DNA of 62,879 nucleotides, counting the filler, from Sphaeroforma arctica JP610 (taxonomy: Eukaryota), in NCBI RefSeq assembly GCF_001186125.1. It is 4 parts of 2 records of this genome, joined end to end, with 100 filler letters (N's around TTAATTAATTAA, not from the genome) between each part and the next. Parts side by side here need not be neighbours in the genome. Positions count along the whole stretch, not along the records: positions 29,028 to 53,347 come from NW_014040529.1; 3 more parts are not named here. One strand, 5' to 3'. The notes under the pieces are model-generated. The model did no database searches, had not been told where the DNA came from, and saw only the letters and a program-made list of their open reading frames with translations. Shown piece after piece: positions 10,718 through 41,743 of this stretch (its first letter is position 1; every line of letters starts with the position of its first letter). The position numbers and the translations under genes were made by a program.

Positions 10718-12013
10718 GATTGCAGTGATATGTTTGATTGCTCTACTATGGCGCTCCTATATGTTGTATATATATAAATATATTTTTGTATATATATATA
10801 TTGTATGATATGATGACATTCTCGAACACACGAACGTTCACTTTGACGTGTCAGAATCGATATAGGATGAAACACCTGCAGTCCTGCTGCACGCGGCGCA
10901 ATCAGATTTTTCTCAAACAACTAGTATTTCTATAAAACTATATTCCTAGGATGAGTACCGAACAGCCACCGACTAACAATTTTATTTTATTTTTTGCGAA
11001 AACTTGCATGAAGTCCGTGAAGTATATTTAAATATTTATGTAACTACATATGTACATACTCTCAGACGCCTTGGCTACATACAATTATATGTCGAATAAG
11101 TCCAGTTGGAACATCCAAATGAGCACAATCTGAGACCCTCAATCTCGCTTGACATGCTTGTGAGTAAATTTGCAAAAACAAAAAAAAGATCAACCCGCAA
11201 AGTATATAATACTGATTAGTTTCCAAGAGTACGTATGTATTTCGAATTTAATATTTATCGCTCGTAGAGATCGGGATCGTCCTCGCCAAAGTCCACTTCT
11301 TCGTCGCACATTATATCTGAAGCTACATTTTTGTCCATCTGTTTGTATAGCAAGTTGCAAAAGATGATCAACTTTTAGGCAACTAATTTGAAAACTTGTT
11401 TGTGAAGTAATATTCATCGCTTCGCGTACGGATTGATAATTTATCGACAACCATTTCCATGCCACGTTACTGGTCATTGCGTATAATCAATTTTGAAAAA
11501 AAAATCGCGGCTACACATCAAATCGTTACGGATGTACTCTCTTGTTTATTGCAAGGCGGCGCCAGCTATTATGTAATAAAAATTGTAATATTTATCATTG
11601 GCTATTTGTATTAACATAAAAGTACATACATGTTCTTCTCTAGCTGTAGATCAGCTGTCACGATACGATGAAATATAGACGTACATACTATAGTATTTGT
11701 GAATAGCTTTAGAATTAAGAATCACGAAATATGTCATAGAACAAGTCTAGCTTTTGAATTAGGCTGGCTCTAGCACACGACCAACGGATGCTCAAATATT
11801 TCACTTGATGGAAATTAAATATACCTATTCCTGCTTCAGAGGATTTCGAGCTACAATGAACTGGAAAACAGAGAAACCAACATGATGAATACAACTGCAA
11901 ATTTGGTAAAAACGATAATCAATTTTTACGTGTTGTTAGAAAAATGCGGCCGTCTACATAAACCAGCGCGAATTCAGCTCCGATTTCGGGACCCAAAACG
12001 GAACACCTACCGG

Positions 12014-20359: not shown

Positions 20360-22389
20360 ATGTTGTGTACTAGACAGATTGCTTCTCGCACATTAGCGCT
20401 GCGCACGGCCCGTTGCGGTCTTTCATCAACGACGCGATGGATGAGCTCCGCCGCTGAGGAGAGCGAGTCTGCCAAAGCGTTTCGTGTCGAGGTATGGTGG
20501 ATACTTAGCAACACTATGATGTATCGGCTTTGCGTTAATGGTGTTATTTCCTGTGGGTGAGCTGTGATTTACACTCAATTGTTGTCAGCTCACTGGATTC
20601 TTCTATTCGGTTCGTACTATGAACGAATAAAAGCGGGAGTAATTGCAATGACCTGCGCAGAACACGTGTTGGGTGATATTACATACTCTATTTCATCTGA
20701 ACCTTTGTGTTGTTGCTTGGCGTAAGAGGTCACCAACGAGTGTTACATGTTAACCCGATCGCTTATATGTATTTTCAGGTGAGTTGTGACTCCATCTGAC
20801 TGGAACTTCTGTTCAGTACTGTAACATTTTCAATTACCACCTGTACCTGTGTTGTTTCTCGCTTGTAAGAAAACGATGGTATTATGTTTGATTACATACC
20901 TTCTAAGTGCATCTGTCTCCTATGTTCGTGTCGCTCCCTTTGTGTTGGATTTGTTCTTCGGAATCGATAAAATATAAAGGAAATTCATCAATTCGTCGTA
21001 ATATCTTGTATCTCAAAATATTGCAGCCTCACTCCACCGGAAAAATGACCGATCTCGGCACACGCCGTATCTTTAACGAAGAGCACGACATGTTCCGTGA
21101 AACCGCTCGTAAGTACTTCGATGAGGAGTGCAAGCCCCACACTGAGAAGTGGGAGGCTGCCGGTATGGTAGATCGCTCCGCTTGGCTCAAGGCCGGCGAG
21201 CTTGGTCTGCTAGGATGCACCACACCCGCTGAATACGGAGGTTCCGACTGCGATGCTAAATACGCCGCCATTGTGTGGGAAGAGCAGGCGTATAGTCTGT
21301 GCACCGGTCCTGGATTCGCACTGCACTCCGATATTGTCATGCCTTACATCAACCACTACGGAAGCGAGGCGCAGAAGAGCCGCATCCTACCCAAGATGGC
21401 TTCTGGTGAGTTCATTGGCGCTATTGCCATGACTGAGCCTGCTGCTGGGTCTGACTTGGCTGGTATGAAGACCACTGCGCTTAAGAACGAGGACGGCACA
21501 TACAGTCTAAACGGTTCTAAGGTGTTTATCACTAACGGAGCTATGGCCGATGTCACCATTGTGTGCGCCAAGACTGCGCCCGAGAAAGGTCCTCACGGTA
21601 TCTCGCTATTCCTGGTAGAGACTGGCATGCCCGGTTTCGAGCGTGGAAAGAACCTCAGCAAGATGGGCATGAAGGCCCAGGATACCTCCGAGTTGTTCTT
21701 CGAGAACGTACAGCTGACCGAGGCCAACCTTCTGGGTAAAGAGAACCACGGTTTCTACTACCTTATGCAAGAGCTACCTCAAGAACGTCTTCTAATCGCC
21801 GATATGGGAGTTGCCGCAGCCGAGGCTGTGTTTGAGCTGACCCGTGACTACGTTAAGGAGCGCAAAGCGTTCGGCAAGCCCTTGGTAGCCCTTCAGACCA
21901 TCCGCCACAAGTTGGCTGAGTTGAAGACTGACATTTGCCAGGCTCGTTCATTCATCGATAACTGCATTGAGCTGCACTCCATTGGCAAGCTGGACACTGT
22001 AAGTGTTTTGTATTGATTGTTGCGGCTTGAAACATGTGTTTAATATTAATTAATTTCTAAACTATTTAATCTGCTGAGATCTGATCTACAGGTTCTGATC
22101 TATATACCTCGTCTTATGATTTACTCGATGATTTTGTTTTGCATCAGTTGTCGTAGATTGTTCATCCCTTGTCCGTTTATGTCTACAGGCTACCGCATCC
22201 ATGGCAAAGGTCGTCGGAACAGACTTGCAGCACAAGGTTGCTGACGAGTGTGTTCAGCTTCACGGAGGTTGGGGATACATGTCCGAGTACCCTGTGTGCA
22301 AGGCCTTCCTTGACGGTCGCGTACAGAAGATCTACGGTGGAACTAACGAGATCATGAAGGAGGTAATCTCAAGAGATATCGTCGCTTAA
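20360..22389 (+). CDS. ACADL: Mitochondrial long-chain acyl-CoA dehydrogenase, 3 exons: 20360-20491, 21027-21998, 22189-22389
   Basis: Arg/Ser-rich presequence, TDLGTRRIFNEEHDMFR, AMTEPAAGSD, GSKVFITNG and RKAFG. The catalytic Glu is in LPQERL while IYGGTNEI has Gly, which is the LCAD arrangement rather than MCAD. Confidence 0.92.
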
Positions 22390-34200: not shown

Positions 34201-34969
34201 TTGTTTTGGTTTGTTTTTGATTTTAGCACCGATCCTCACCGATCCTCTCACCTCTGTTGAGGTTTTGCCTTCCAATGGAAGACCTGACACAAAGTACCCA
34301 AAATATAAATAAAACTATTAAAGCCAGAAACAAGCCAGCATAAATTAAGTCTTCCATTGGAAGACTCAATATAAAACCTAATTTATGTGTATCGACCCTT
34401 AAGATTATAGGAATTTTTCCTAAATTTGATAATTCCAGAATTTCAATCAGGAAATATTTAGAATATTCTGGGCGACTTTAAGAATTTCAACCCCGATTCG
34501 ATTGTTTATAATTTTGTGAATGTCTCGACATAAAATCTCATTTTATTTCAAAACAAACAGCACGTGTGAATGTATTATAGCCTTTTAGTCACAGTGTTCG
34601 AGAGATACAACATGAGCCTAGAGAAGGGCTATCATCGGGAAACAAACGTCAAGCCCATGACTAACGCATGGTTTAAGCAATCCATATATTGTATGCGTTG
34701 TGGTAAACTGCTGTACCTGAAAATGAGGTATCAGTCTGCATCGAATGCAGACAAAAATGGCACAGTAAATGTCATCCATCGTGTGGTATAAGTGATGATT
34801 TCAACTACATTGGAGATCCTAAATACACGCGGTACGGCGTCAAGCGAGGCTGCTGCTTTGCCTTTAATAAGAAACCTAAATGCCCTGGATGTACATGTAA
34901 TCGTATAGCAAGGCGTCTGTTCGAGTAAATAGAGCTATAATTTATCTGTAACACAACCAATGCTCATTA

Positions 34970-35739
34970 TGTAAGATTCGGTCTATTAAGGCGATATTAA
35001 CGAATTAGAGTAAATAAACCCGTAGGTAAATTCCAAGTATCGTGAAAATATCAAAGTAAATAAACGAAATGAGACTTTTAGTAAAGTTAGGTATGCCTCG
35101 TGAAAACCACAATAATCTAATGGATTGTGAGGCTGAGACGTTACCTATATATAATCCTCTCAGTACTGTTTCCGCCGAAAGGATTTTGTTTAGTGTTTCT
35201 TTGTCGCTCTATTAGAAACTATAGTATATTTCATTGGGGCGAATCTGAGACACTCATAAAATCCTATCTTTAGAAATAATATATAATAAATAAAGGAAAA
35301 ATACTTTTGATGTCCTTGGTTATTGTCTTAACCAATAACTTGCCACTTATCAAGAATTACCGACTTAGCCTTCATCAGACTGGCGCATCTGGTTGGCTGA
35401 TCGGAGGATCAACTAGGTAACGTTAATAGTCCCTAGAAACCTATATTCGGTTGAGCCATTTCGCTACCGAAGTATTCTGATATAAATAAAGTTGGGAAGT
35501 AGATATAGTTCCATTAATAGAACTAGACCAAATCTTAAGTTTGGTATTTTACTGGGGTATTACAATGGCCTCATCCAAATATCTGATATATAACATGAAA
35601 AATGTATTAATTCATAAAGCCATTTAAAACCATTTAGGAAACAAATTGCTCGTACTATTAAGAGTACGTTTATATTTTACTTACTGCTTAAGAGTACGTT
35701 TATTACATAGAGTCTAATGTAGAGGCCCGGCTTATTACA
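34970..35739 (-). repeat. 3' LTR of the Gypsy element
   Basis: TGTAAGATTCGGTC...GGCTTATTACA; colinear with 41744-42514 and 57688-58507. Confidence 0.95.
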
Positions 35740-35878
35740 CAGCCCCCACCCAGCTTTGAGACCCAAGAGAAGCAAGTTGCTCATTCAAGCTGATTATGGG
35801 TCAAAAAGCGAGAAAGGAAAAACAGGTCGAAAACATTAAATAGCATAACATATAGTTAATGTTTCTCAGGCGGAGAAG

Positions 35879-36460
35879 TTAAGCGTTCTCGGTTACCCTG
35901 TGAGTTTTGAGCTTAGGTTCAGTAGGTCCGTGGTGGTCGATTGGACGTTTCTTACGCTTCAGTGTCTTAAGCACATATGAAGGATGAGCATTAAAGCTCG
36001 GGATAAACGCTGTAGGCGGATAAGTTTTAACTTCCGTGCCTTCAGACGATGGAAACATGCTATCTTTTTCAGCTTGTGACTTATGCAGGCGTTTACGCCA
36101 TTTTCGATTAAAGGCTTTTAAATGGCCTTGATTATCGAAAGCATCTGAAGTCAACTCAGTTATTGTACCGTCTATAAAGCGTGTACGATAGTATGTATAG
36201 CCTCCTATAATGTCTTTAAATTCAAACCGATCAAGAGGGGCATTAAAGTCATGTATTCTTGCAAGTATAATCTCTGTAGTCGGAATACGACTTGTGCCTA
36301 TATTAAGCGCACTAGAGCCATCGGGGTTATTTACTTCGTACGTTCCACTTTTAATGTCTGCCACAGAGATTATATATGGACCTATCCATTTAGATGTTAA
36401 TACAGTAGCATCGGAATTACGTTGACGGATGATAACTCTGTCACCGACCTGATACTCTGA
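35879..36460 (-). pseudogene. Integrase C-terminal GPY/F module plus degenerate chromodomain-like segment
   Basis: EYQVGDRVIIRQ..LTSKWIGPYII..SGTYEV (KWIGPY at 36391-36374) is in frame with ORF 36364-35879, which contains EFKDII..YYRTRFIDGTITELTSDAFDNQGHLKAF. The chromodomain call is weaker than the GPY/F call. Confidence 0.7.
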
Positions 36461-36949
36461 TATCTTCTTGGCAGCTTATGGTTTTTCGTCAGCCAAGCAA
36501 GAATATTTTCATCATTCTGCTCCTCCAGAATAAAGGTAGGGTGTTGAGAATCCACTTGCGTGGTCTTTAAGTCTGTAGTGTTTCTAGAATCCTGTCCTGC
36601 TTTTGCATGAGTGTCATAAGTGCGTTCATTTGCGTTAGATACACCTGATTTATTAAATAGTCGCATTATATGTGTATACGCTTCAGGATTGTCTTTCAAT
36701 AATCCCTTTAGAAATAGGGTTTAAAGACCTCGGGCTTGGACTTTATGTTATTAAACAGAGTCCTAGCTAGAGACTGACGCTTCTTAACAGTAGTGTCATT
36801 AGTAGATTGTATTTCATGTGCACGGACTTCAAGTGCTGCGTTGCCTTTGAACTGCTTAACGTTCAATTGGGTAGAGAGTGGAATCTCTGATTCTTTGACC
36901 TTGATAAGGAAGGTCTCAGAAGGGGTCCATTTGGTTGTTCCAATGGGAC

Positions 36950-37553
36950 CTATACGACATATTATAGTATGTCTCCAGGGCGTCTTCTGGACGGCTCGGG
37001 TACCCTGATATAGGAAAGTATTTAATTCCCTATCTAAATATATTGGCTCGCAATGTATCATGCTTATTAATTCATTGAGCCATGGATCTTTACTCCGTAA
37101 TGGGCTACACGACGTGATGTTAGCTTTATGTATATGAACATAATTCAATAGCTGATTAACTGCCATGGTGGATTAGCCCACGCATTATATTTGGAGAGGT
37201 CTGTTTGAAAGGCGTCTCCCAAAGGATGTTTTAAAGTTCTGTAATTTGATAGTTGTGCATTATGATGAGCAGCAAACATATCTATGGTATGTGGCCCAAA
37301 TATCTTCTTGAGCCAGTTCAACCCACCTGGGATTACATTTCCAGTCAGTGGCTAGTAACTCACGTACAGATTTGGAGAGGTCTATTTGAAAGGCGTCTCC
37401 CAAAGGATGTTTTAAAGTTCTGTAATTCGATAGTTGTGCATTATGATGAGCAGCAAACATATCTATGGTATGTGGCCCAAATATCTTTTGAGCCAGTTCA
37501 ACCCACCTGGGATTACATTTCCAGTCAGTGGCTAGTAACTCACGTACAGATTT
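36950..37553 (-). pseudogene. DNA N6-adenine methyltransferase (Dam-like) domain, disrupted by frameshifts and a 180-bp duplication
   Basis: Reconstructed sequence: DWKCNPRWVELAQKIFGPHTIDMFAAHHNAQLSNY..GDAFQIDLSKYNAWANPPWQLI / QLLNYVHIHKANITSCSPLRSKDPWLNELISM..PIYL..TPWRHTIICRI. NPPW is at 37174-37163. Confidence 0.85.
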
Positions 37554-37569
37554 ATTAAGTCCGGTACGA

Positions 37570-39400
37570 AGCGTGATAACATATCCGGTAAATGGTTGTG
37601 TATTCCTGGCAGATGTTTTATATCAAAATGAACCTTTGATATTGTAACATGCCAGCGACTCAGTATTTGTGAGTCGGGTTTCATCTCATTCATATATTGA
37701 AGGGATTTCTGATCACACATCAGCGTAAATGCTGTTCCTTATAAGTAATCTCGGAAGTGTGTTAGAGCTGCCACTATGGCTAATAGCTCTTGTTTAACAG
37801 TTGGATAATTCAACTGTGAAGCATTCATTGCTCGACTAAAGAATTGTATATATCTAGGTTTGTCATATATAACCTGATATAATACCCCTCCTAAGGCTAA
37901 GTCAGAGGCGTCCGTTGCTATTTCAAACGGCACGCCATCGACTGGTCCTTGTACAACTGGGGCTTGTTGGACTGCGTGTTTGAGCGCTTTAAACGCGTCA
38001 TCACACTCTTTAGTCCACAAGTCTCCTAGTTTGCCTTTATGACATCTTAAGTGTCCAAAAGGTTTAAGGTAATCAGCCAAGTGTGGTACTCCATCTGAAA
38101 AGAAGTTTACAAACCCACACATGCTGTAAACATCTCTTCCTGTAGTTGGTGTTCGCCAATCTAACAGGTGGTCTACCTTAGCGGGGTCGATTTTAATACC
38201 TTCCCCAGATATATGGTAGCCTAAGAGCTGTATTTCGCTCATGGCGAAGTGACATTTCTTCTCGTTAATCTTGAAGTTTTGTTCGTTGAGTCTCTGATGG
38301 ACTCGTCTGGCTAATGCGGCATGTTCGCTTTTAGTCTTAGAAACGACGACTATGTCATCTATATAGACTTGCACGTTAGGCATGCCTGCAAACATTTCCT
38401 CCATTTTTTGTTGGAAGAATGCTGGTAAAGAGTGCAACCCGAAAGGTGCACCTCTGAACCTGTATTGTTTACCTTTCCACGTAAAACTAAAGTATTTACG
38501 ATGTGGTTCATATACCTGCATTTGATGGTATCCTTGTGTAAGGTCTATAGTTGTAAATACTGTAGCACCTTCTATCCTTCGCAGTAGCTCGTTAATACGA
38601 GGTAAGTGAAGGCTATGAGTCGGCAAAAATTTATTTATCGGACTCATATCTAAACATACTCTAATTTTCTTAAATGATCCGTCAGAGTGATGTTGGTCTA
38701 CGGATAGCAGTGCCATGTTAACTGGCGTCTGCTAATAGTTAATTCCTATCACTCCATCTGCTAGCCATTTCTCAATTTGTTCTTTTACCACAGCCTCGTG
38801 TCTCCAGGATACATAGTTCCTTGAGGGACACTTTAACTGTGTAAAGTCCACCTTGGTTAAGTCAAAGTTGATATACCCGTCGTTAAAACGAAATTTTGCC
38901 CAATCTGTGATCTTTATCTTCTTATTAACTAGAATCAGATCTATGATTTTGTTCGCAAAGTCAGGTATTAATGCCTTGACTGTGTCTGACGGGGGCTTAT
39001 ATGGATTCAGACAGTTATCGTCTGACTGATCCTTTAATGGATCTATTGGATCTATGTTATTTGGTAGACCAGTTACGGCTATATCTAGAGTGAGTAAATC
39101 GCTCATTCCGACTATAATGTCGTACTTCTGTGACATCTTAACTATCACAGCTTGGGTAGTGATACTCCTATCATCGGCCAGGGAGATTTTAACATCTGTG
39201 GCCATGGTATCACACTTAGAAGTTTTATCATCAGCTAAAATGAGGTGAGTTGTTTGTGTTCTCCTTTCGATATCTTTCATTATTTCAAAGCGATCGGAAA
39301 TACATGGAATTTCTGAACCAGGATCAATCAATGCAAGGATTTTATTTCCATTGCAGTATACAGGGATTATTACACGCTCATCTAAAGAGTCGTTGTATTG
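37570..39400 (-). pseudogene. pol: aspartic protease, reverse transcriptase and RNase H in one frame with premature stops at 38732 and 37739
   Basis: ALIDPGSE (protease); RVCLD, IDLTQGYHQ, APFGL and YIDD (RT); IATDASD, YPTVKQELLAIV and HLPGIHNHLPDMLSR (Gypsy-type RNase H). Confidence 0.95.
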
Positions 39401-39430: not shown

Positions 39431-41616
39431 TCACTCCAACTTAATGTCGGATATTTTGTCACAAGACTTAGTGTGATAACCATTGGTCTTCTCACACTTG
39501 TCGCACTTAATAAGAAGGTGTGTATAGGTGGATGCATGCCTGCCATTCCAATAACCGTTAGGGGTCAATTGGTGCATGTCATACCCACACTGTGCGTCGG
39601 CACATTTCTTAATCTTCGTAAATGGAGGTTCCTTGTCTTCGCCTCCGCGCGTGCCCGTTTATTGGGTCGCGTGGATAGAGTGGAGTCACGAGCACGTGTA
39701 TGTTGGGGTCTCTCATTTGAGGTCTGCCTGGATACGTACCCGTGATCGGTGTGCTCCCACGGCTTCTTAACAGCCGCTTTTCCCTTCGATGTTGCTCGGT
39801 GTGCGGGAAAAAGGGTGGATACAGTATCATAAAACTGTTCCCACGTAAATCGGGATAGATGAAACTTTGTTTCATGTTCCTTGTCTCGAGCCTCAGTAGC
39901 GTGTTTACGTCGCAACTTGGTGTACAGGCTCTCACGGTCGTTATTCCCTATGTTCTTACAGAACACGTGTATAACCAGGAACTCGTACCATCGCTGTGCC
40001 TTGTCCTTTGTTATATCTGGACGTTTCAGGTCAGCATCTAACTTCAGAATATAACTCTGAATGGGCGTGTTCTCAACTGGTTCAGTTAAAGTTGAACTCA
40101 GTCCTGGGCTACGTATGTCCTTACTTAACAAGGATGTAACCAACCAATACACAGCTGGCCAGTCACGACAGGTGTCTAGCTCATGTTGGTGTCGCTGCAG
40201 GATCAAATAACTTGTACCTGTAGGGTCAAACGTCTGCACTAACGCAGAGATCCATTGCTGGGGAGCGATATCATTCGTCTCCAGTATGACCGTAAACGCA
40301 TTAAGCGTACGGGTTGGTGTGTCGAGGTCATGGTTGTTTATATACTCGACCTGCTTACTGTTGGCATCCCAGTTCGACTTAAGTCGACTGATCTGTCCTT
40401 TGTACTTTTGGTTATCCCTGTGGTCTTGTCCAGGCCTGAAGTAGCTGATCGATGCGCATTTGCTTAATCGCAATCATATTAGCAAAATATGATACATCCT
40501 CAGCATGATTGTAATCGTCGACCGATTTGTTAAGTTCGGTCACCTCGTCAGAGTGAAAATTATCTGCGGGTTGATGTAGTGCTGAGCAATCGAAGCGATT
40601 AAATTCGACTTCGTTAACACGTTTACGGGGGTGTTTATTACCCCTTGTAAAGTCCATGGCCGAGGCCTTTCGGTGCTCTGTTCCTCGGATAGTGGTTGGT
40701 ATTATAATCTTGGGTGATTATGCCTCTGGATAACATACCCAGTCTTAATTGGTTTCCGACGATTGTCATCCCAATTGAGTAAAAGTGGCGGAGTATTTCT
40801 ACCTGCCTCTGGGTCTATAATTCCCTCAAGGACGGGTGACTCACGGCCGGGTGTCAGAACAGGCAAGTAATTAGCCTGAAGTTCTGCTGGTAGTACCTCG
40901 TAAGGTATAGATACGCTGAGCACATCTGGCTCATATGCCACAGGTGTAGCGCTCGAGTCTTTACGTTCTTCGGGCGCAATTGCCTGTCGACGTTCTGTCC
41001 ACTTTTGTAGGGCTTCAGTAATGCCCGGAGAAACATGCTCGCGTAAGTGCTGTGTATTTTTTCTTGATCTATACAATCGATCTACATGTTCAACAGTCAA
41101 TTCTTTCATAAGGGTAGCTAACTGATTCTTAAGATCAGTGTTTTCAGGAATTAACTTACTTATGCGCGTTAGCTTAGTAGTCTCGGTCGTATATTCGGGT
41201 TTGCCACTTGAGCTTGCCTCCTATTCTGGTTCCATTATAGGTTCCTTCTGAGATTTGTCCTTGTCCCCAATAATTGGGGACTCCCTTATAATTGGTAACT
41301 TTTCTTTCTGAGTTTCGTTAGAAGAATGGGTTGGGGCGTCTTGAGACGTGTCCCTTGTCTCACTTCTTGGCTCCGTAAATGCAAGCTTTGAGGTTGAGGC
41401 AATAGTTGGCCCTCGGGCTCTGTCAGTGGGAGTAGTCTTCTTAATCGGAGTGGCTACATCCTTATCTGAAGCATTGTCCTGTTGACTATTATTGTCGGAG
41501 GCAAGTGCTTCGGCTACAGTGCGGTTAAACGCATCAGCAGCAGCAGCGGTTACTCTCTCCATCTTCTTCTTTTCACCTCTACGCTTCTTAGAAGGAGTAT
41601 TGTCTTTCTTGATCAT
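39431..41616 (-). pseudogene. gag region (about 2.2 kb), broken into ORFs 41616-41221, 41109-40702, 40657-40412 and 40473-39565, ending in zinc-knuckle-like motifs
   Basis: Lies between the 5' LTR and the protease. CADAQC..H and CDKCEKTNGYHTKSC occur just before the TGA at 39431-39433. Confidence 0.7.
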
Positions 41617-41743
41617 AATCTTAACATATGACTGCTAGCTGATCACTTAAGGACTAGATTGGACAAGATAAATTTTGTGGTAGTTAATCTACCTTGACGC
41701 TTAAGTAGACTAAGTAATTAATACCTTTGCTAACTTTAAAATG

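What the first reader, a model, noticed from the sequence alone, without database searches (positions are those of the whole stretch)
36950..37553. Ty3/Gypsy LTR retrotransposon whose pol carries a Dam-type DNA adenine methyltransferase directly after RNase H
Seen: right after the RNase H end (LPDMLSR), in a shifted frame, the minus strand reads DWKCNP..FGPHTIDMFAAHHNAQL..DAF..WANPPWQLI..SP..PWLNEL..PW. This is a SAM-binding DxFA motif plus an intact NPPW catalytic motif. Established: an RT-RH-MTase arrangement is known from DIRS1-type tyrosine-recombinase retroelements, which typically lack a protease, direct TG..CA LTRs and TSDs. This element has all three, plus Gypsy-type RT/RH. Inference: a Gypsy lineage that acquired a 6mA writer, possibly marking its own cDNA or insertion to evade silencing or to mimic a host transcription-linked 6mA mark. 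I do not know of a description of this architecture, but I cannot search the literature.
Basis: partly seen in the sequence, partly recalled or inferred. Interest (0 to 1): 0.92.

Follow-up and report, generated by a model that had tools for sequence, protein, structure and literature searches.

The report
Dead Gypsy retrotransposon carrying adenine methyltransferase
This is a broken copy of an abundant Gypsy-type jumping gene in the single-celled animal relative Sphaeroforma arctica; its enzyme string really includes a domain predicted to methylate adenine, likely on the element's own new copies, but a May 2026 preprint already described this kind of element in this species.

Summary
Observation confirmed. 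Window 42514-34970 (minus strand) is a Ty3/Gypsy LTR element with TG..CA LTRs 89.5% alike and a 4-bp target duplication, in Sphaeroforma arctica (host gene 99% identical). A Dam-family domain with DMFA and NPPW motifs follows RNase H. Intact relatives carry protease-RT-RNase H-methyltransferase-integrase in one reading frame. The RT groups with Gypsy, in one clade with an Abeoforma element. The architecture is already in print: bioRxiv 10.64898/2026.05.21.726589 defines an 'ichthyosporean DAM-LTR lineage' in Sphaeroforma, Abeoforma and Pirum. The scan has noted such elements in other genomes. Two small additions: 5 of 11 integrase-bearing clade members have a chromodomain, although the preprint says the lineage lacks one; and the best fold match of the methyltransferase is the RNA cap enzyme PCIF1, so RNA is a live rival substrate. 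Novelty: already known; interest 0.2.

The parts
41744..42514 (-). 5' LTR, 771 bp, TG..CA
   Evidence: 89.5% identical to the 3' LTR, K2P distance 0.105
42515..42518 (-). target-site duplication TAAT, upstream copy (downstream copy at 34966-34969)
39565..41634 (-). gag region, broken into at least four ORF pieces; assigned by position only
   Evidence: three of the four pieces were scanned and gave no gag family in Pfam
39101..39367 (-). aspartic protease, DPGS motif
   Evidence: Pfam Asp_protease_2 E 0.012; motif; relatives P0002 and P0004 hit at E 1e-6 and 2e-8
38018..38731 (-). reverse transcriptase (YIDD), preceded by a premature stop at 38732-38734
   Evidence: Pfam RVT_1 E 4.5e-27; best solved relative is Ty3 RT, E 1e-48
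37557..38017 (-). Gypsy-type RNase H with a premature stop at 37739-37741, ending LPDMLSR
   Evidence: Pfam RT_RNaseH_2 E 3.5e-28
36930..37553 (-). Dam-family (PF05869) adenine methyltransferase domain with DMFA and NPPW, broken by frameshifts at about 37556, 37307 and 37154
   Evidence: fold of the intact relative
37193..37553 (-). tandem duplication of 180 bp inside the methyltransferase (37553-37374 and 37373-37193)
   Evidence: a joint skipping 183 bases in 3 contigs of run X1
36473..36929 (-). poorly conserved linker and first histidine of the integrase zinc finger; frameshift at about 36715-36722
   Evidence: linker 27% identical between P0001 and P0002
36470..36475 (-). deletion point: the rest of the zinc finger and the whole integrase catalytic core (about 260 residues) are missing
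   Evidence: tblastn gap P0001 771-1174; loose ends at 36472 shown in 5 of the 6 runs laid
36047..36469 (-). integrase C-terminal SH3-like domain (GPY/F) followed by an eroded chromodomain-like region
   Evidence: about 50% identical to P0001 and P0002; alignment; model of the P0001 counterpart
35740..35751 (-). polypurine tract
   Evidence: seen directly
34970..35739 (-). 3' LTR, 770 bp, TG..CA
57688..58507 (-). solo LTR of the same family, 820 bp, with its own 4-bp target duplication ATGG
   Evidence: about 90% identical to either LTR over aligned columns
11064..11140 (+). 77-bp remnant of the methyltransferase C-terminus of a related copy
   Evidence: 79% identical, E 1e-14; tblastn

Best explanation
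It is a dead copy of a multi-copy Ty3/Gypsy LTR retrotransposon of Sphaeroforma arctica whose Pol carries a Dam-family methyltransferase domain between RNase H and integrase, and in intact copies that domain likely methylates adenines on the element's own reverse-transcription intermediates. Shown here: the anatomy, the host, the Gypsy RT, the one-frame order PR-RT-RH-MTase-IN in intact relatives, the conserved motifs, the predicted fold, and that this copy cannot move on its own. Inferred: Pol is packaged in the virus-like particle and cut by the protease; the methyltransferase meets the RNA:DNA hybrid or the new cDNA there and adds 6mA; after integration the host maintenance enzyme AMT1 would keep the mark, so the new copy looks like an active promoter region and is transcribed more. 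The last steps are the model of the 2026 preprint and have not been shown biochemically. My odds: 0.95 for the identity, about 0.55 for this mechanism.
For: Host gene 21045-22013 is 99% identical to an S. arctica JP610 protein. P0001 (70% RT-RH identity), P0002 (67%) and Abeoforma whisleri P0004 (42%) hold RT, RH, Dam and an integrase in one frame. RT tree: DIRS-type rows split off at 100/100, and the window lies in a 10-row clade of methyltransferase-plus-integrase elements at 99/99 (98/97 with RT-RH). Nesting inside the DIRS-type rows is rejected (p-AU 4e-104 and 7e-60). The methyltransferase tree gives the matching clade at 99/96. The domain is as conserved as RT between P0001 and P0002 (67% against 63%; linker 27%), and 13 of 14 clade members keep NPPW or NPPF. 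Model pLDDT 93.5; top fold matches are adenine methyltransferases. Many different flanks at the LTR ends show a large family: 46-62 loose contigs per end where shown, agreement 0.35. The preprint reports more 6mA and more RNA on DAM-LTR copies in S. arctica and A. whisleri, and AMT1 in 9 of 13 DAM-LTR species.
Against: The preprint's E. coli assay of representative eukaryotic DAMs showed no rise in 6mA. The best fold match is PCIF1, an RNA enzyme (Z 10.3), above E. coli Dam (8.1) and T4 Dam (7.7). The close relative P0002 has CPPW in place of NPPW while its frame is intact. The 6mA enrichment is a correlation and could come from host AMT1 acting on transcribed copies. A tree with the Sphaeroforma trio next to the DIRS branch was not rejected (p-AU 0.157 and 0.098), so its exact depth inside Gypsy is not fixed.
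Confidence: 0.55

Rival explanations
1. Same element, but the domain is an RNA adenosine methyltransferase of the PCIF1 clade. It would methylate the element's own RNA (the cap-adjacent adenosine or internal sites) to aid its stability, translation or packaging; the 6mA on genomic copies would be a side effect of their transcription and host AMT1.
For: Foldseek: the 3 matches with E up to 0.001 are all PCIF1/CAPAM, best E 1.1e-4. VIA-align: PCIF1 Z 10.3, rmsd 3.6 over 141 residues, then mostly rRNA adenine methyltransferases. 9 of 46 aligned homologues hit Pfam PCIF1_WW at E up to 0.05. Iyer et al. place DIRS methyltransferases in the PCIF1 clade (PMC4738411, passage). It would explain the negative assay on E. 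coli genomic DNA. The preprint's main text has 0 mentions of PCIF1, CAPAM or m6A.
Against: 43 of 46 homologues hit the phage Dam family, and the preprint's tree ties the clade to prokaryotic Dam. Identity to PCIF1 is only 14%, the match covers about a fifth to a quarter of that chain, and a shared fold shows no function. DAM-LTRs occur mostly in AMT1-bearing hosts, which fits a DNA mark better.
Confidence: 0.25
2. The domain is kept as a non-catalytic nucleic-acid or SAM-binding module, or as a structural spacer in Pol, and methylates nothing that matters.
For: CPPW in intact P0002; negative E. coli assay; Iyer et al. regard DIRS copies as likely inactive.
Against: 13 of 14 clade members keep NPP plus an aromatic residue, although this set was found with an NPPW query and is biased towards it.
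Confidence: 0.15
3. A DIRS element, or a DIRS fragment that landed by chance in one Gypsy copy.
For: RT-RH-MTase is the DIRS order, and the frame break at the RH-MTase border could look like an insertion edge.
Against: Direct LTRs, 4-bp target duplications at two insertions, protease and integrase tail. RT-RH scores 141-510 bits against Gypsy-type rows and 38-81 against DIRS-type rows. The break at 37556 is a single missing base relative to other copies. One-frame relatives exist from Sphaeroforma-like to Abeoforma elements.
Confidence: 0.02

Closest known systems
Ichthyosporean DAM-LTR lineage (Fernandez-Moreno et al., bioRxiv 10.64898/2026.05.21.726589, 22 May 2026; whole main text read, figures and supplements not seen)
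   Same: Same host species (S. arctica), Ty3/Gypsy RT, Dam-family domain with an NPP motif, and one clade with Abeoforma whisleri elements.
   Different: This copy is decayed and lacks the integrase core. The preprint says the lineage lacks chromodomains, but 5 of 11 integrase-bearing clade members here, Abeoforma P0004 among them, have one by a custom profile, and the Sphaeroforma-type tail has a chromo-like predicted fold. I could not compare with the preprint's own sequences.
DIRS1-type tyrosine-recombinase retrotransposons with an RT-RH-MT frame (as described in the preprint and in PMC4738411, passages read)
   Same: Homologous methyltransferase directly after RNase H.
   Different: Gypsy RT and RH, protease, DDE integrase in intact relatives, direct LTRs and target duplications; no tyrosine recombinase profile hit in P0001, P0002 or P0004.
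PCIF1/CAPAM cap-specific adenosine N6-methyltransferase (PDB 6irw, 6irx)
   Same: Closest solved fold of the domain; same clade according to PMC4738411.
   Different: About 14% identity; the retroelement domain is a bare core of about 135 residues; its substrate is unknown.
DNMT-carrying retrotransposons (PMC5890265; search listing and start of abstract only)
   Same: A retrotransposon that captured a DNA methyltransferase.
   Different: Those carry C5-cytosine enzymes; this one has an amino-methyltransferase with NPPW.

Membership tests
Ty3/Gypsy LTR retrotransposon | Direct LTRs with TG..CA ends, target-site duplication and polypurine tract | tested here: met
   LTRs of 771 and 770 bp, TAAT duplication, tract at 35740-35751
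Ty3/Gypsy LTR retrotransposon | Pol order PR-RT-RH-IN | tested here: met
   whole in relatives; this copy keeps only the two ends of the integrase
Ty3/Gypsy LTR retrotransposon | RT groups with Ty3/Gypsy | tested here: met
   the DIRS-type label is mine, from architecture, and none of the DIRS-type rows looked up carried a DIRS name
Ty3/Gypsy LTR retrotransposon | Primer-binding site after the 5' LTR | tested here: inconclusive
   no TGG-type site; a 9-bp complement to the LTR is matched by 315 of 5000 shuffles
Ichthyosporean DAM-LTR lineage | Ichthyosporean host (Sphaeroforma, Abeoforma or Pirum) | tested here: met
   host gene 99% identical to S. arctica JP610
Ichthyosporean DAM-LTR lineage | Dam (PF05869) domain with NPP motif inside a Gypsy Pol | tested here: met
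Ichthyosporean DAM-LTR lineage | One clade with Abeoforma DAM-LTRs in the methyltransferase and RT trees | tested here: met
Ichthyosporean DAM-LTR lineage | No chromodomain (descriptive statement in the preprint) | tested here: inconclusive
   no Pfam or custom-profile hit in the window, P0001 or P0002, but clear custom hits in 5 clade members and a chromo-like predicted fold at Z 6.5
Ichthyosporean DAM-LTR lineage | Raised 6mA and expression of insertions | not testable with these tools
   reported for the family class in the preprint; no methylation data here
DIRS retrotransposon | RT inside the DIRS clade | tested here: not met
DIRS retrotransposon | Tyrosine recombinase in place of integrase and protease; no direct LTR pair with target duplication | tested here: not met
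Active N6-adenine DNA methyltransferase | Methyl transfer to adenine in DNA | not testable with these tools
   motifs and fold present; published E. coli assay negative

The most novel reading that the evidence does not exclude
The ichthyosporean DAM-LTRs are chromoviruses in disguise whose methyltransferase is a PCIF1-like RNA enzyme. The lineage arose from a chromodomain-bearing Gypsy, kept the chromodomain in Abeoforma and eroded it in Sphaeroforma, and its domain marks the element's own RNA or RNA:DNA hybrid inside the particle, not double-stranded DNA. That would be a retrotransposon with its own RNA-methylation writer and would explain why expression in E. coli left no 6mA on DNA.
Probability: 0.2. 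Interest if true: 0.6.

Novelty: already known. Interest (0 to 1): 0.2.

Why it matters
As an architecture it no longer matters as a discovery: it is in a May 2026 preprint for this species, and this copy is dead. What stays open is the substrate. If the domain writes 6mA on new copies, a transposon forges the host's mark of active chromatin. If it writes m6A on RNA, retroelements carry their own RNA-modifying enzyme. S. arctica can be cultured and holds many copies, so the question is testable there. The chromodomain result, if it holds on the preprint's own sequences, corrects its description of this lineage and places its origin among chromodomain-bearing Gypsy elements.

Tried and rejected
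No whole genome was held, so genomic copies could not be counted or used for dN/dS. A word-based search with the methyltransferase region of P0001 found only P0001 and P0002 among 37 candidates; the full profile search found 1709 proteins at E up to 0.001, of which the best 150 were listed and used. Sequence searches of solved structures with the domain gave nothing useful (0 hits; 5 weak unrelated hits). The metagenome scan gave 2 loci, both ordinary Gypsy elements with no match over the methyltransferase region. Self-priming of the Tf1 type (PMC6317226, passages) was considered because there is no TGG primer site, but the 9-bp complement is not significant (315 of 5000 shuffles). No tRNA gene lies in the window. 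Expression: no RNA holder listed; this says nothing either way. Classifying 12 listed single-base differences in the last methyltransferase piece gave 4 synonymous of 12; the table was cut short and mixes this dead copy's own changes with those of other copies, so it is no test of selection. ApT and CpG content of the element are near expectation. The first AU test only moves the trio next to the DIRS branch and was not rejected; I then tested true nesting. Foldseek on the C-terminal model gave no match at E up to 0.001. A look-up of earlier scan notes by sequence found nothing.

Full report
Observation. They are spread over three pieces in two frames: 37553-37374, 37306-37154 and 37154-36930. 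A 180-bp tandem duplication repeats the first part; the second unit has one extra base and two substitutions. The middle piece, which runs from FGPHTIDMFA to WANPPWQLI without a break, hits Pfam Dam PF05869 at E 6e-6. The pieces are 66-73% identical to the same domain of an intact relative.

Anatomy. The element spans 42514-34970. Its LTRs are 771 and 770 bp, start TG and end CA, and are 89.5% identical (K2P 0.105), so the insertion is old. TAAT is duplicated at both ends. A solo LTR at 58507-57688 has its own duplication, ATGG, so 4 bp is the family's length. A purine tract precedes the 3' LTR. There is no TGG-type primer site, and a 9-bp self-complement is not significant. Inside lie a broken gag-like region, a protease (DPGS; Pfam E 0.012), RT (E 4.5e-27) and RNase H (E 3.5e-28), with two premature stops in this stretch. 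After the methyltransferase come a linker, the first histidine of the integrase zinc finger, and then at once the integrase C-terminal domain. About 260 residues, including the whole catalytic core, are deleted at about 36472. This copy cannot move on its own.

Host. The gene at 21045-22013 is 99% identical over 99% of its length to a Sphaeroforma arctica JP610 acyl-CoA dehydrogenase; the next hit is at 87%. The host is an ichthyosporean, a single-celled relative of animals.

Family. Contigs of six public runs were laid on the element. At the outer LTR ends 46-62 contigs per end shown run on into unrelated flanks (agreement 0.35), which means many insertion sites. Each frameshift in and after the domain has a compensating indel in other contigs, at 37556, 37307, 37154 and 36715/36722, and a joint skips the duplication in run X1. 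Loose ends at 36472 are shown for 5 of the 6 runs (X1, X5, X6, X11, X16 and X18 were laid; X6 shows it only), and read by eye in frame they supply the second histidine of the zinc finger. So the damage belongs to this copy. Contig depth is no copy number, and I give none.

Intact relatives. Among 85 long proteins found with RT-RH, 3 carry the domain: P0001 (70% identity), P0002 (67%) and P0004 from Abeoforma whisleri (42%). Each has RT, RNase H, Dam and integrase in one frame, with protease hits in P0002 and P0004. Between P0001 and P0002 the methyltransferase is 67% identical, RT 63%, RNase H 76%, integrase core 58% and the linker 27%, which points to selection on the domain. P0002 has CPPW in place of NPPW.

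Trees. A profile search with the domain found 1709 proteins at E up to 0.001; I used the 150 listed. I labelled as DIRS-type the 47 that have a full RT and end at the methyltransferase without an integrase; this label is mine, and none of those looked up carried a DIRS name. The RT tree used 12 of those 47, 20 of 80 Gypsy rows without the domain, all 15 rows with both domain and integrase, and the window. DIRS-type rows split off at 100/100; the window sits with P0001 and P0002 (100/98) in a 10-row clade with P0004 (99/99), inside a 20-row group (95/86) whose 7 members without the domain all have chromodomains. RT plus RNase H on 40 rows gave 98/97 for the 10-row clade. Moving the trio next to the DIRS branch was not rejected (p-AU 0.157 and 0.098), but nesting it among DIRS-type rows was (4e-104 and 7e-60). 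The methyltransferase tree (23 of the 47 DIRS-type rows, 18 with integrase, 3 truncated, and the window's pieces as separate rows) gave the matching clade at 99/96; it is unrooted and does not name a donor. In that clade 13 of 14 proteins keep NPPW or NPPF, as do 42 of 47 DIRS-type rows, but the set was found with an NPPW query.

Fold. The P0001 domain, modelled on 46 sequences, has pLDDT 93.5 and pTM 0.88. Foldseek's three matches at E up to 0.001 are all PCIF1/CAPAM, the mRNA cap-adjacent adenosine methyltransferase (function from abstracts listed). VIA-align ranks PCIF1 first (Z 10.3, rmsd 3.6, 141 residues), then mostly rRNA adenine methyltransferases, E. coli Dam (8.1) and T4 Dam (7.7). 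Iyer et al. already put DIRS methyltransferases in the PCIF1 clade and thought them likely inactive (PMC4738411, three passages read). The fold shows an amino-methyltransferase but not its substrate.

Chromodomain. Pfam finds none in P0001, P0002 or P0004. A profile built from 39 chromodomains of the Gypsy hits finds one in P0004 (E 1.4e-9 among 17 proteins) and in none of the other 16, which include P0001, P0002, the window and 13 controls. A second profile hits 5 of the 11 integrase-bearing members of the clade. The Sphaeroforma-type tails align with that of P0004. A model of the P0001 tail (pLDDT 79, only 4 rows, one of them P0004) matches SH3/Tudor-like folds over residues 1-70; the four listed rows that fall within residues 70-141 are all chromo or chromoshadow domains, at Z 5.8-6.5, which is a middling score. 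The likeliest reading is a chromodomain that has eroded in Sphaeroforma.

What is known. Three literature searches on this architecture returned bioRxiv 10.64898/2026.05.21.726589, whose whole main text I read; its figures and supplements were not available and may hold the exact domain order and sequences of the ichthyosporean elements. [quoted passage not shown] It reports that DAM-LTR insertions in S. arctica and A. whisleri are more often 6mA-marked and more expressed than other LTRs, that 9 of 13 DAM-LTR species have AMT1, and that representative domains expressed in dam-minus E. coli did not raise 6mA. It proposes methylation of RNA-DNA intermediates followed by AMT1 maintenance. Its main text does not mention PCIF1. 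A search on chromoviruses and Ichthyosporea listed no paper, among the 10 of 110 shown, that describes the chromodomain in this lineage. Earlier notes of this scan report such elements in other genomes and reach the same preprint; I had found it before and they did not change my reading.

Verdict. The most likely role of the domain is to mark the element's own replication intermediates with 6mA (0.55), with an RNA substrate (0.25) and a non-catalytic role (0.15) as rivals. Novelty: already known. Interest 0.2.

Noticed in passing
P0004 residues 1347-1392; window 36047-36250 (-): The Abeoforma DAM-LTR has a clear C-terminal chromodomain that Pfam misses, and the Sphaeroforma tail looks like an eroded version; the preprint says this lineage lacks chromodomains.
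   Followed up: yes
P0002, methyltransferase motif IV: An intact close relative has CPPW in place of NPPW, a natural comparison for tests of activity.
   Followed up: partly
window 41704-41743 (-), after the 5' LTR: No tRNA-type primer-binding site; 9 bases complement a stretch inside the LTR, as in self-priming elements, but this is not beyond chance (315 of 5000 shuffles).
   Followed up: partly
window 43505-43841 and 48507-48846: A second pair of direct repeats, 340 bp, 92% identical and 5 kb apart, starting TGTGG; possibly the LTRs of another decayed or non-autonomous element.
   Followed up: no
P0239 and P0258: Unnamed long proteins with the order endonuclease/exonuclease/phosphatase domain, Dam, RT, RNase H, integrase (P0258 also has a protease); their RT lies on a very long branch on the Gypsy side.
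   Followed up: no
window 58867-59319 (+): ORF piece with a SCAND3-like zinc-finger hit (E 0.00065) next to the solo LTR, likely the remains of another mobile element.
   Followed up: no
window 11064-11140 (+): A 77-bp remnant of the methyltransferase C-terminus, 79% identical to the element, far from it.
   Followed up: partly
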